Position numbers and translations under genes: made by a program. A DNA stretch of 64,000 bases from Escherichia coli (lineage in GTDB: Bacteria; Pseudomonadota; Gammaproteobacteria; Enterobacterales; Enterobacteriaceae): the NCBI RefSeq assembly GCF_003334785.1, contig NZ_QOWV01000001.1. The stretch is one strand, 5' to 3'. Of the stretch, positions 11,445 through 13,850 are shown piece after piece. Position 1 is the first letter of the stretch. Each line of letters starts with the position of its first letter. The notes beneath the pieces are model-generated. The model ran no database searches and had not been told where the DNA came from. It saw only the letters and a program-made list of their open reading frames with translations.

Positions 11445-12176
11445 TTAGGGGGCATGAAAGATGACTTTATAACCTTGCTCACCCCAGTGTTGTAAAAGTT
11501 CGTTTTGCCTTCTCGTTGGTGCCATGCCTGTCCAGACAATCAATGTTTGCGTCGGGAACAGTTCCGGGCGCGGCGATTCAATGGGATCAGCAAGAACAGA
11601 AATGTGCCATCCTGACAATGATAAACGCCATGCTTCCAGCCACAATCGTGCTCTCTCTTCAACATTCCACGCCATCAGAATGGCTTCTTTACCGGGCTTA
11701 CGGCGCATTTCGAAAAGCGAGGTTGCTGCGTATTCAATTAATGCGCCGTCAAACATACTGCTCATAATGCGGGAGGTGTTGTGATCAAGCACGAGACGCT
11801 GGCGAACAGGAAGGTAAACATGATTAATCAATTGATCTACTGGGTACTCTCGACCCAGTGAAATAATTCTCGCGCGTAGTTTGGCAGGATTAGCCATGCG
11901 AAGAATTGACATCATCTCTTCTTGCAGGCGGCTCCAGTCATCTTCCGTATCCTGGCTGGTGGTTTCCAGTAATGCTTTAACTTTGCCTACAGGGACGCCA
12001 TTACTTATCCAACGCTTGATCTCTTCGATGCGTTGTATGTCTTCTTCATCAAAGAGTCGGTGTCCGCCTTCACTGCGCTGTGGTTTTAACAAACCGTAGC
12101 GGCGTTGCCAGGCCCGGAGAGTGACAGGATTAATCCCGCAACGTTCAGCAACATCACCAATGCTGTAATAAGCCAC
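11445..12176 (-). CDS. bluR: MerR-family transcriptional repressor BluR (YcgE)
   Basis: 243-aa ORF with N-terminal MerR helix-turn-helix ([27 protein letters not shown]); GTG start. Confidence 0.9.
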
Positions 12177-12209: not shown

Positions 12210-12260
12210 TGTACACGACCCAATAATACTTTGTACAATATACGCTAAAATTGTACAAAG
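12210..12260. promoter_or_regulatory. Cluster of TGTACA palindromes upstream of bluR (candidate MerR-type operator)
   Basis: TGTACA at 12210-12215 and two copies of the self-complementary 8-mer TTGTACAA at 12231-12238 and 12251-12258, forming a 10-bp inverted repeat CTTTGTACAA...TTGTACAAAG. Confidence 0.4.
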
Positions 12261-12380
12261 TATAAATAAGATTTCAGCTAAATTGGATGAAACATTATTT
12301 TTAATGTGGATTAAATTTAAACGTAACGTATTCATTTTCACGATGATTTACTGAAATCATGTGAAAGAATGTGCTGAAAA

Positions 12381-13592
12381 TTATTTTTTCTCTGGCCACG
12401 CTATGGAAGGGATACCATTCAATTTAGCTTTAGCAAACAGATCTCCCTGAAACATCTCAATTCCTGCGGATTCAAGCCACATCCACTCTTCTGGTGTTGC
12501 CACGCCCATAGCACTGACTTGAATTTCAAGTGATGTACAGCATTTTATGATCGCCTGAATAATTGCCTGCCGTGGCCCACTTTTATGAACATTGGTAATC
12601 AATTCCTGACTGATTTTAATTCTGTCAGGCTGGAAGCGTGACAGGAGTAACAAACCAGCAAAACCTGCGCCAAAATGATCAATTGCTACACTGATACCAG
12701 CAGCCTTTAGCGATTTAATCGCTTCGGCAAACTCATCAAACCGAGATATGACTTCACTTTCAGTAAATTCAACGATGATTTGTTCAGGCACCAGAGCATT
12801 GGCCTTTATTTCATTAAGTAAAAAAGAGACTGCGTCAGGTTCGTTAACCAGGGTCATAGGTAATAGATTGATTGAAATCATTTTATCACCGAGCTCAAGT
12901 GCGTGTGCCATCGTGAATGCAAGCGCCTTACTTTTGAGATCCGCTGTGTAGATTTCCCCGTCTTTACGCTGCCCAACCGCTATGGCTGATGGGCTATCTT
13001 CATTTTTTTGCACAATGGCTTCAAAAGCGATTATCCGCCGCGATAAGGGATCGACAATAGGATGAAAGGCAAAGTGGTCGTTTATAGTTGGTGAAAGGGC
13101 ACAGGAATCAAGTTCTTTATCAGATCCGTCAGCGATAAAAAGCCAGGAGTCTTCGGCAGGGATCTCGAAATAGGTTGATTGTTCGGTTGCAAGGACAAAA
13201 GTACGAAAAAATTGTAGCGCTCTGTCATCATAAGTTAGCTGAAATTTTGATGTGCCTTTGTCGAATACGGCCTGTAAAACGTCATCTCGCTCGTGCAGGC
13301 GCAAATCAAATAATTCCATTCCCGCTTTGCCAAAACGGCGAGCAGGCGCGTAATCGCACAGCAGCTCAACAATATTATAGTGCCGTGGATCCTGACATAT
13401 AGCCCGATATATCATTTTAACCTGTTCTTCCGGACCTTCCAGAAGCTGGAAAAAATGAGAACCATTAAACAGTAAGATCCCTGTTACGTCAGACTGCATG
13501 TTCCTGCGATTTGCTATCGAAACCATTTCTTCGATTTTTTTGACAGGTTCGTCGTCACGTATATGGCTACGATAAATAAGGGTGGTAAGCAT
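12381..13592 (-). CDS. bluF: Blue-light sensor BluF (BLUF plus degenerate EAL domain; BluR antagonist)
   Basis: ORF contains MLTTLIYRSHIRDDEPVKKIEEMVSIANRRNMQSDVTGILLFNG (BLUF) and a C-terminal EAL-like region; start placed at MLTT for 403 aa. Confidence 0.9.
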   Translation of the reverse strand: MLTTLIYRSHIRDDEPVKKIEEMVSIANRRNMQSDVTGILLFNGSHFFQLLEGPEEQVKMIYRAICQDPRHYNIVELLCDYAPARRFGKAGMELFDLRLHERDDVLQAVFDKGTSKFQLTYDDRALQFFRTFVLATEQSTYFEIPAEDSWLFIADGSDKELDSCALSPTINDHFAFHPIVDPLSRRIIAFEAIVQKNEDSPSAIAVGQRKDGEIYTADLKSKALAFTMAHALELGDKMISINLLPMTLVNEPDAVSFLLNEIKANALVPEQIIVEFTESEVISRFDEFAEAIKSLKAAGISVAIDHFGAGFAGLLLLSRFQPDRIKISQELITNVHKSGPRQAIIQAIIKCCTSLEIQVSAMGVATPEEWMWLESAGIEMFQGDLFAKAKLNGIPSIAWPEKK

Positions 13593-13830: not shown

Positions 13831-13850
13831 TGTACACATATTTCGTACAA
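13831..13850. promoter_or_regulatory. TGTACA-N8-GTACAA inverted repeat in the ycgZ promoter (candidate BluR operator)
   Basis: cTGTACAcatatttcGTACAAtt lies 56-75 bp upstream of the ycgZ ATG and shares the TGTACA core with the bluR upstream repeats. Confidence 0.4.

What the first reader, a model, noticed from the sequence alone, without database searches (positions are those of the whole stretch)
12210..12260. Triple TGTACA palindrome array upstream of bluR
TGTACA at 12210 and two copies of the self-complementary octamer TTGTACAA at 12231 and 12251 form a 10-bp inverted repeat pair 34-84 bp upstream of bluR. The core resembles the operator half-sites of the MlrA/BluR MerR-like family, which suggests BluR autoregulation or cross-regulation by a paralogue.
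Basis: partly seen in the sequence, partly recalled or inferred. Interest (0 to 1): 0.35.

Follow-up and report, generated by a model that had tools for sequence, protein, structure and literature searches.

The report
Conserved self-operator on bluR promoter
The repeated TGTACA motifs in front of the E. coli blue-light repressor gene bluR form a perfect 38-bp palindrome on the gene's own promoter; the same motif pair is kept in more than 60 related species, so it is most likely the site where the repressor limits its own production, an ordinary kind of circuit that I could not find reported for this gene.

Summary
TGTACA sits at 12210, 12232 and 12252. The last two lie inside a perfect 14-nt inverted repeat with a 10-nt spacer (12226-12263). 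Shuffles of the local AT-rich spacer never produce this.

bluR is on the minus strand. Its published transcription start (54 nt before the start codon, about 12230) puts the palindrome at -33..+5, over the -10 and the start site.

The hexamer pair is a strong phylogenetic footprint. With at most one mismatch, 65 of 68 BluR-like genes from more than 15 enterobacterial genera carry it about 60-85 nt before the start codon. Spacing is usually 19 bp, 20 in E. coli, and 13 in Enterobacter, which is the spacing of the footprinted BluR operator at ycgZ. Erwiniaceae genes at the mlrA chromosomal position also have the pair; Enterobacteriaceae mlrA does not. The third hexamer (12210) is not conserved.

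Best explanation: BluR binds its own core promoter and represses it (confidence about 0.6). Binding mainly by the paralogue MlrA is the chief rival, because the long spacing resembles the csgD MlrA box. Nothing here shows binding, and no accessible paper reports it. BluR's predicted fold is CarH-like, which may explain the flexible spacing. This is a new member of a known kind, of moderate interest.

The parts
12226..12263 (.). Perfect 38-bp palindrome: 14-nt arms (12226-12239, 12250-12263) and a 10-nt spacer (12240-12249). It spans about -33..+5 of the bluR promoter, with the dyad centre near -15.
   Evidence: I3, 100% complementary; sequence; 0 of 3000 shuffles reach 14 nt; both arms were unchanged in all 9 divergent E. 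coli alleles aligned, and the 46-mer spanning the palindrome is identical in 4594 of 4972 E. coli records.
12252..12257 (.). Distal TGTACA hexamer (-27..-22), in the promoter spacer next to the -35. On the minus strand it reads TGTACAATTTT, an 11/11 match to one half of the idealised MlrA box.
   Evidence: MlrA box as quoted; conserved in orthologues.
12232..12237 (.). Proximal TGTACA hexamer (-7..-2), between the -10 and +1.
   Evidence: conserved in orthologues as TTGTACAA.
12210..12215 (.). Third TGTACA hexamer (+16..+21, in the 5' UTR). It is specific to some E. coli lineages and polymorphic, so it is probably dispensable.
   Evidence: It reads TGTAGA in AVS0972, ST131, ST80, APEC IMT5155 and AH19K002 and is not present in Citrobacter.
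12237..12266 (-). bluR core promoter: -35 TTTATA (12266..12261), 18-nt spacer, -10 TATATT (12242..12237). +1 is at about 12230, which is 54 nt upstream of the GTG.
   Evidence: Consensus scan. The transcription start was mapped by primer extension in Tschowri et al. 2012 (PMC3509220). The scan and the mapped start agree, with +1 falling 7 nt after the -10.
11445..12176 (-). bluR (ycgE) coding sequence, 243 aa: MerR-type winged HTH, then MlrA_helical, then MlrA_C domains.
   Evidence: ORF; RefSeq annotation of the identical region; Pfam.
13831..13849 (+). Known BluR operator in the ycgZ promoter, TGTACA-N7-CGTACA (13-bp spacing). It serves here as the reference site.
   Evidence: footprint, EMSA and in vivo mutants reported in PMC3509220; the TGTACA-N7-TGTACA form is conserved across genera.

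Best explanation
The two inverted TTGTACAA elements (12231-12238 and 12251-12258), with their palindromic flanks, are an operator for the MlrA/BluR family of regulators placed on bluR's own core promoter. Most likely BluR binds there, contacting the two hexamers about two helical turns apart on one face of the DNA. This occludes the -10/+1 and the spacer region and represses bluR transcription, giving negative autoregulation. When BluF, activated by cold and blue light, pulls BluR off DNA, bluR would be derepressed together with ycgZ-ymgABC. That would replenish the repressor and reset the switch while keeping BluR below toxic levels. Shown here: the sequence anatomy, its position on the mapped promoter, its conservation, and its restriction to BluR-type genes. 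Inferred: which protein binds, the sign of regulation, and the feedback logic.
For: (1) Position: the palindrome covers -33..+5 of the primer-extension-mapped promoter.
(2) Motif identity: the same (T)GTACA half-sites make up the footprinted and mutationally verified BluR operator at ycgZ.
(3) Phylogenetic footprint: TGTACA density is 11.0 per kb in the 160 nt upstream of 68 BluR-like genes against 0.43 per kb in the rest of the same loci. With at most one mismatch, 65 of 68 carry a pair. Flanking sequence is not alignable.
(4) In the Enterobacter cloacae complex, Lelliottia and Kosakonia, the self-promoter pair has 13-bp spacing, the same as the proven BluR site at ycgZ.
(5) The box follows the protein type rather than the neighbourhood. 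Erwiniaceae genes without bluF or ycgZ have it, and their HTH region is identical to E. coli BluR (DNA-binding domain 86-88% identical). Enterobacteriaceae MlrA loci (DNA-binding domain 72%) have no TGTACA within 400 nt upstream.
(6) Within E. coli, both arms were unchanged in all 9 divergent alleles aligned, and the palindrome segment is far more conserved across about 5,000 genomes than the neighbouring spacer.
(7) The three BluR-like loci that lack a box (L018, L023, L054) all sit directly downstream of bluF; in two of them, L018 and L023, bluF ends about 65 nt before bluR, so they may have no promoter of their own.
(8) BluR overproduction is reported to be toxic, which gives a rationale for self-limitation.
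(9) Wide and variable spacing has a precedent in the closest structural relatives. BluR's DNA-binding domain and full-length predicted fold match CarH/LitR best. CarH recognises TnnACA repeats with plastic operator designs, and one CarH dimer spans repeats 22 bp apart.
Against: No binding or expression experiment on this promoter was found in the accessible literature. The 2009 Genes & Development paper, which contains ycgE reporter fusions, could not be read. The 20-bp spacing in E. coli (19 in most species) differs from the only proven BluR site (13 bp) and is closer to the MlrA box (18 bp). BluR bound the csgD MlrA box only weakly in vitro. Transcription starts in the other species are predictions only. 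H-NS, SrsR and sigma-70 holoenzyme are also reported to bind this spacer, so bluR's cold induction does not require autoregulation.
Confidence: 0.6

Rival explanations
1. The box is bound mainly by the paralogue MlrA, possibly in competition with BluR. MlrA would then cross-regulate bluR, probably by repression given the position, linking the curli/CsgD pathway to the BluR-Ymg-Rcs pathway.
For: The long-spaced inverted hexamers with an A-rich spacer are the same class of element as the csgD MlrA box. In MG1655 that box is AAAATTGTGCA-ATAAAAACCAAA-TGTACAACTTTT with spacing 18. The distal half-site here is an 11/11 match to TGTACAATTTT. BluR and MlrA HTH regions are similar and show cross-binding at csgD. 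The Erwiniaceae genes that carry the box sit at the mlrA chromosomal position, next to yehW/yehX-like genes.
Against: The box co-occurs with BluR-type DNA-binding domains and is absent from all 12 Enterobacteriaceae MlrA-like loci and from E. coli mlrA. Enterobacter orthologues have replaced the long spacing with the BluR-type 13-bp spacing. The spacer is N14 in E. coli and N13 in most species, not N12. No SELEX or ChIP report of MlrA at bluR was found.
Confidence: 0.15
2. The hexamers are a site for an unrelated DNA-binding protein that happens to like TGTACA-like or AT-rich DNA, such as RcdA, SrsR or H-NS.
For: RcdA's box (TTGTnTACA) resembles TTGTACA, and RcdA binds the nearby ycgF-ycgZ spacer. 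SrsR gSELEX gives a peak assigned to the bluR/ycgF spacer and SrsR activates bluR. An H-NS site is flagged in this spacer.
Against: TTGTACAA lacks the extra central bases of the RcdA box, and RcdA SELEX did not list the bluR-bluF spacer. The reported SrsR box, GCAGGTTTTGC, lies at 12658-12668 inside bluF. H-NS does not explain two exactly conserved palindromic hexamers at fixed spacing across genera.
Confidence: 0.07
3. The palindrome works as a nucleic-acid hairpin: a bluF 3' stem-loop or terminator, a 5' UTR structure of an upstream-initiated bluR transcript, or a DNA cruciform.
For: The E. coli sequence folds as RNA into a 14-bp stem (-19.6 kcal/mol, z = -2.8). It lies 118 nt downstream of the bluF stop codon. 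An alternative upstream promoter (TTTAAA-16-AATAAT, 12321..12294) has been proposed from holoenzyme SELEX.
Against: No U-tract follows, and the terminator scan found none. The mapped +1 lies inside the proximal arm, so bluR mRNA lacks the distal arm. Across orthologues, only the hexamers and a weak shared flank preference are conserved. Arm complementarity exceeds that expectation only marginally (206 versus 184 +/- 10). Erwiniaceae loci have a divergent upstream gene, so there is no read-through transcript.
Confidence: 0.04
4. The hexamers are simply promoter elements. TGTACAAT contains the -10-like TACAAT, and TGTACA matches TTGACA at 4 of 6 positions. No dedicated regulator binds them.
For: In several orthologues the best sigma-70-like promoter uses the distal hexamer's TACAAT as its -10, for example TTGACA-16-TACAAT in Pluralibacter. 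E. coli has a weaker equivalent, CTGAAA-16-TACAAT.
Against: This does not explain the equally strong conservation of the second hexamer 19 bp away, the palindromic form, or distal hexamers not followed by AT (TGTACAGA, TGTACACT). The mapped E. coli start fits TATATT, not TACAAT.
Confidence: 0.05

Closest known systems
BluR operator in the ycgZ-ymgABC promoter (Tschowri, Lindenberg & Hengge 2012)
   Same: Both use the same (T)GTACA half-sites, overlap a core promoter with an 18-nt spacer, and lie in the same gene cluster. Enterobacter-group bluR promoters have the same 13-bp spacing.
   Different: In E. coli the hexamers are 20 bp apart (19 in most genera) rather than 13. The site covers the -10/+1 and the spacer, not the -35 and the spacer. 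BluR binding has not been shown.
MlrA box of the csgD promoter (Ogasawara et al. 2010; AAAATTGTACA-N12-TGTACAATTTT)
   Same: Both have inverted TGTACA-type hexamers about two helical turns apart, with an A-rich spacer and A/T flanks. One half-site here is identical over 11 nt.
   Different: The spacer is N14 in E. coli (N13 in most orthologues) rather than N12. This site lies on the core promoter, implying repression, whereas the csgD box lies far upstream and activates. It is associated with BluR-type genes, not MlrA-type genes.
CarH/CarA/LitR operators (MerR-type DNA-binding domain plus a B12-binding-like module)
   Same: BluR's DNA-binding domain and its full-length predicted fold match CarH best. 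CarH repeats have a TnnACA core, which TGTACA satisfies. Their operators overlap the -35 or -10 and repress. One CarH dimer contacts repeats 22 bp apart, and operator design is plastic.
   Different: CarH sites are tandem direct 11-bp repeats bound by a B12-dependent tetramer. Here there are two palindromic hexamers 19-20 bp apart. The alignment shows no invariant histidine in the C-terminal domain that could serve as a B12 ligand. The oligomeric state of BluR is unknown.
Classical MerR-type operators (MerR, CueR, SoxR): a dyad inside a 19-20 bp -35/-10 spacer
   Same: The regulator has a MerR-family HTH, the site has dyad symmetry within a promoter whose spacer is longer than optimal (18 nt), and the regulator controls its own gene.
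   Different: The dyad centre is near -15 rather than mid-spacer. The half-site separation is about 20 bp, compared with roughly 11-14 bp in classical MerR operators (from my own knowledge of those operators). BluR lacks the classical fold beyond the DNA-binding domain, and it is described as a repressor only.

Membership tests
BluR operator (ycgZ type) | Two (T)GTACA half-sites | tested here: met
   Exact TGTACA at 12232 and 12252. The ycgZ reference is TGTACA/CGTACA.
BluR operator (ycgZ type) | Half-sites 13 bp apart start-to-start (TGTACA-N7-xGTACA) | tested here: not met
   The spacings in the window are 20 and 22 bp, and 19 bp in most orthologues. The 13-bp spacing is met only in the Enterobacter, Lelliottia and Kosakonia self-promoters.
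BluR operator (ycgZ type) | Overlaps core promoter elements so that binding blocks RNA polymerase | tested here: met
   The palindrome spans -33..+5 relative to the mapped +1.
BluR operator (ycgZ type) | Bound by BluR in vitro, and derepressed in a bluR mutant | not testable with these tools
   This needs EMSA or footprinting and reporter fusions. No report was found.
MlrA box (csgD type) | Inverted TGTACA-type hexamers with A/T-rich flanks | tested here: met
   TGTACAATTTT matches 11/11 at the distal site. The pooled outer-flank preference is A-s-T-T.
MlrA box (csgD type) | 12-nt spacer (18 bp start-to-start) | tested here: not met
   N14 in the window and N13 in most orthologues. N12 occurs in only 3 loci (L016, L031, L041).
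MlrA box (csgD type) | Located far upstream of the promoter, where it acts as an activator site | tested here: not met
   Here the site is on the core promoter. The csgD box lies about 270-290 nt before the csgD start codon.
Classical MerR-type operator | Dyad centred within a 19-20 bp -35/-10 spacer | tested here: not met
   The spacer is 18 nt and the dyad centre is at about -15, overlapping the -10 and +1.
CarH/LitR-type operator | Repeats containing a TnnACA core that overlap the -35 or -10 | tested here: met
   TGTACA fits TnnACA, and the site overlaps the -10/+1 (for the definition).
CarH/LitR-type operator | Three or four tandem direct repeats with 11-bp period | tested here: not met
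   There are only two conserved hexamers, 19-20 bp apart. No intervening repeat is conserved.
Negative autoregulation by a repressor | The factor's own recognition motif lies in its own promoter and is conserved across orthologues | tested here: met
   65 of 68 orthologous promoters carry it, with about 25-fold enrichment.
Negative autoregulation by a repressor | Promoter activity rises when the factor is removed | not testable with these tools
   No reporter or transcript data for bluR in a bluR-null background were found. The Genes & Development 2009 paper is not held.

The most novel reading that the evidence does not exclude
The MlrA/BluR regulators are degenerate CarH-type proteins (photoreceptor-like, without B12) whose flexibly tethered DNA-binding domains read TGTACA hexamers in two distinct geometries: 13 bp at ycgZ and about 19-20 bp at their own promoters and at csgD. 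On this reading, the self-promoter box is the ancestral family operator. BluR retained it, enterobacterial MlrA lost it, and bluR became a cold- and blue-light-inducible negative-feedback gene, possibly also open to MlrA.
Probability: 0.3. Interest if true: 0.6.

Novelty: new member of a known kind. Interest (0 to 1): 0.45.

Why it matters
BluR is the switch of the E. coli blue-light and cold pathway that controls the Ymg/Rcs system, curli and biofilm matrix. A self-operator would add a feedback loop to that circuit, setting repressor dosage (overproduction is toxic) and the recovery time after BluF-mediated release. The comparative data also give the first cross-genus picture of what this regulator family recognises: TTGTACAA pairs in two spacing classes. 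They suggest that BluR, rather than enterobacterial MlrA, kept the ancestral promoter architecture. They connect the family structurally to CarH-type light regulators. All of this is directly testable with standard EMSA and reporter assays. It is not a new kind of mechanism.

Tried and rejected
1. RcdA as the binder. Its box, TTGTnTACA, does not fit TTGTACAA, and RcdA SELEX hits the ycgF-ycgZ spacer instead.

2. SrsR as the binder. Its reported box maps to 12658-12668, inside bluF.

3. Terminator or hairpin. There is no T-run, the mapped +1 lies inside the stem, and there is no arm covariation beyond a shared half-site preference.

4. Co-variation of spacing between the ycgZ and bluR sites in E. 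coli and Citrobacter. I first thought both were one base longer, but that was my miscount. ycgZ is 13 bp in E. coli, and Citrobacter bluR is 19 bp.

5. Hidden 13-bp partner half-sites around each hexamer. By my own reading of the E. coli sequence I found none, and the profile of orthologous boxes shows no second conserved hexamer beside either one.

6. Reading Tschowri 2009 (Genes & Development) and Ogasawara 2010 (FEMS Microbiology Letters). Neither is held.

7. Literature searches for BluR autoregulation, ChIP or SELEX targets, and an MlrA-CarH relationship. Nothing relevant was found.

8. The third TTGTACAA in the window (42297). It is solitary and inside an ORF, so it is probably chance.

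Full report
WHAT IS THERE

The window is the E. coli icd / e14 / bluR-bluF / ycgZ-ymgABC region. bluR (ycgE) occupies 11445..12176 on the minus strand. bluF ends at 12381. ycgZ starts at 13906 on the plus strand.

TGTACA is at 12210, 12232 and 12252, and TTGTACAA is at 12231 and 12251. The repeat is larger than described. ATACTTTGTACAAT (12226-12239) and ATTGTACAAAGTAT (12250-12263) are perfectly complementary 14-nt arms around a 10-nt spacer.

The window-wide totals are unremarkable, at 13 TGTACA and 3 TTGTACAA in 64 kb. The clustering is not. In 3000 dinucleotide shuffles of the 204-bp, 31% GC spacer, two or more TGTACA arose in 0.17%, three or more never, and a perfect inverted repeat of 14 nt or more never. 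Allowing one mismatch, hexamer pairs 11-23 bp apart occur in the whole window only here and at the known BluR operator of ycgZ.

WHERE IT SITS

Tschowri, Lindenberg and Hengge (2012; PMC3509220) mapped the bluR 5' end by primer extension to 54 nt upstream of the start codon, which is about 12230. They showed that bluR is transcribed independently of bluF by sigma-70 RNA polymerase.

The consensus scan finds, on the minus strand, TTTATA (12266..12261), an 18-nt spacer and TATATT (12242..12237). This places +1 exactly there.

Relative to that start, the palindrome spans -33..+5. The hexamers lie at -27..-22, at -7..-2 and, for the third, at +16..+21. The dyad centre is near -15. A protein bound here would block RNA polymerase. 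The paper does not mention this palindrome or autoregulation.

WHAT THE MOTIF IS

The same paper footprinted BluR on the ycgZ promoter at GTACA...GTACA half-sites and verified them by EMSA and in vivo mutants. In the window that site is TGTACA-N7-CGTACA at 13831-13849.

The csgD MlrA box reads, in MG1655, AAAATTGTGCA-ATAAAAACCAAA-TGTACAACTTTT, with spacing 18.

The bluR-promoter element therefore uses the family's hexamer. Its 20-bp spacing matches neither reference exactly and is closer to the MlrA box.

COMPARATIVE EVIDENCE

A scan of one genome per species returned 80 loci.
- 39 BluR-like genes (57-83% identity) have the full ymgBA-ycgZ / bluF-bluR synteny.
- 29 BluR-like genes (54-68%), nearly all from Erwiniaceae, have no bluF or ycgZ in the stretch fetched. 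Two of these are short contigs whose source organism is uncertain.
- 12 are MlrA-like genes (about 50%).

In the 160 nt upstream of the 68 BluR-like genes, TGTACA occurs at 11.0 per kb, against 0.43 per kb elsewhere in those loci. With at most one mismatch, 65 of 68 carry a pair about 60-85 nt before the ATG. The spacings are:
- 19 bp in the large majority, including Citrobacter.
- 20 bp in E. coli and three other loci.
- 18 bp in three loci, and 16 bp in one.
- 13 bp in the Enterobacter cloacae complex, Lelliottia and Kosakonia.

The consensus of 47 distinct 19-bp boxes is tcaagTTGTACAat.AaAaAa.a.TTGTACAA. Both hexamers are nearly invariant, the spacer is 83% A+T, and the surroundings are otherwise unalignable.

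The three loci without a box (L018, L023, L054) all sit directly downstream of bluF. In two of them, L018 and L023, bluF ends about 65 nt before bluR.

The ycgZ promoters of the same species conserve TGTACA-N7-TGTACA (13 bp, occasionally 14), which confirms that this is the BluR operator type.

Within E. coli, the 46-mer spanning the palindrome is identical in 4594 of 4972 records. The common variants are TGTAGA in the third hexamer (ST131, ST80 and APEC, probably the roughly 23% of genomes in the 95-99% identity band) and a G-to-A change in the central spacer. Both arms and both hexamers were unchanged in all nine divergent alleles I aligned. The adjacent 80 bp of spacer is much more variable.

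The conserved unit is therefore the pair, not the triple.

WHO BINDS

The box tracks the BluR-type protein.

The Erwiniaceae genes sit next to proW/proV-like transporter genes, exactly as E. coli mlrA sits next to yehW-yehX. They are thus positional orthologues of mlrA. Yet their HTH region is identical to that of E. coli BluR, with the DNA-binding domain 86-88% identical, compared with about 74% to MlrA. These genes carry the box.

The Enterobacteriaceae MlrA-like loci, and E. coli mlrA itself, have no TGTACA pair upstream.

The simplest reading is that self-binding is ancestral to the family, was retained at bluR, and was lost at enterobacterial mlrA. Together with the 13-bp variant in Enterobacter, this favours BluR as the binder in E. 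coli. MlrA cross-binding cannot be excluded, because the long spacing is MlrA-box-like and the two proteins are known to cross-react at csgD.

HOW TWO SPACINGS COULD BE READ

BluR comprises MerR_1, MlrA_helical and MlrA_C domains. Its DNA-binding domain is closest to Thermus LitR and CarH among solved structures (E about 6e-14).

A confident AlphaFold model (pLDDT 89) shows a winged HTH, a helical bundle and a small alpha/beta domain. It matches full-length CarH best (E about 1e-9 to 1e-10). Classical MerR proteins match only through the DNA-binding domain.

CarH-family proteins recognise repeats with a TnnACA core, show 'unusual plasticity' of operator design, and in Thermus one head-to-tail dimer contacts repeats 22 bp apart. 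This is a lead rather than a test, but it makes a two-turn operator plausible for this family.

RIVALS

- RcdA: its box, TTGTnTACA, does not fit, and its SELEX targets exclude this spacer.
- SrsR: its reported box lies inside bluF at 12658-12668.
- Hairpin or terminator: the RNA stem is stable (-19.6 kcal/mol). However, there is no T-run, +1 lies inside the stem, and arm complementarity across orthologues barely exceeds a shared half-site preference (206 versus 184 +/- 10).
- Pure promoter elements: in some orthologues the distal TACAAT is the best -10 candidate. That cannot explain the second hexamer or the palindromic form.
- H-NS and sigma-70 holoenzyme are reported in this spacer. They may contribute to cold regulation independently.

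CONTEXT AND LIMITS

BluR overproduction is reported to be toxic, which fits self-limitation. No accessible paper reports BluR autoregulation or this palindrome. The 2009 paper with ycgE fusions and the 2010 MlrA paper are not held, so prior knowledge cannot be ruled out. Binding, the sign of regulation and the feedback logic are all inferences.

VERDICT

This is a real and deeply conserved cis-element on the bluR core promoter. It is most likely a self-operator that gives negative autoregulation (about 0.6). It is a new member of a known kind and of moderate interest.

Noticed in passing
L015, L017, L021, L022, L025-L027, L029, L035, L037, L039, L043, L044, L053, L055, L061; about 35-50 nt upstream of the distal hexamer (locus coordinates about 2880-2900): Erwiniaceae loci carry a second conserved palindrome, ATCTCAtATATGAGAT, between the BluR-like gene and a divergently transcribed PuuR-like XRE/cupin regulator gene. 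It may be that regulator's operator.
   Followed up: no
window 11448-12176 (BluR protein): The predicted BluR fold (pLDDT 89) is CarH-like: a winged HTH, a helical bundle and a small alpha/beta domain. The top PDB matches are 5C8F, 5C8E and 5C8D. The 36-sequence alignment shows no invariant histidine in the C-terminal domain, so it looks like a B12-independent, degenerate CarH-type module. No paper linking MlrA or BluR to CarH was found.
   Followed up: partly
ycgZ promoters of L013, L014, L018, L023, L040-L042, L045, L046, L048, L050, L051, L057, L059, L062, L064-L066, L068: In many species the ycgZ operator pair (13 bp) is followed exactly 19 bp later by TGTATAAC, the likely -10. The 19-bp spacing seen at bluR promoters therefore recurs between an operator hexamer and a hexamer-like -10.
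   Followed up: no
L036 and L063 (Pluralibacter), about 25-40 nt before the bluR ATG: An additional short-spaced pair, CGTACA-N6-TGTACA, lies in the 5' UTR downstream of the long-spaced box. These promoters therefore carry both site types.
   Followed up: no
L088 (E. coli SL124, NZ_CM194971.1), equivalent to window about 12253: An IS1 element is inserted within the palindrome, at about the distal hexamer, in a strain whose bluR is annotated as a pseudogene with an internal stop.
   Followed up: partly
alignment positions 66-78; about 17-27 nt downstream of the proximal hexamer in many orthologues: A second conserved block, tt.GTTAa.GT (for example CGGTTAAGGT or TCGTTAGTTT), lies in the presumed 5' UTR of many BluR-like genes. 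It is absent from E. coli and Citrobacter, and its function is unknown.
   Followed up: no
window 12658-12668 (minus strand), inside bluF: There is an exact match to the SrsR (YgfI) box variant GCAGGTTTTGC reported for the 'bluR/ycgF' gSELEX peak. It lies about 480 nt upstream of the bluR start codon, inside the bluF coding sequence rather than in the spacer.
   Followed up: yes
window 12294-12321 (minus strand): A second promoter-like site, TTTAAA-16-AATAAT, lies upstream of the mapped bluR promoter. It is the one guessed for bluR in the RpoD-holoenzyme SELEX study, which also flags H-NS binding here. Transcripts from it would contain the whole palindrome.
   Followed up: no
window 42297-42304: The only other TTGTACAA in the window is solitary and lies inside a 244-aa ORF (41898..42632, minus strand). 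It is most likely chance.
   Followed up: yes
L028 and L038 (Pantoea coffeiphila): This one Erwiniaceae genome carries two BluR-like genes. One is next to the divergent PuuR-like and GNAT genes typical of the Erwiniaceae loci, and the other has bluF-ycgZ-ymgB synteny. Both have the 19-bp box.
   Followed up: no
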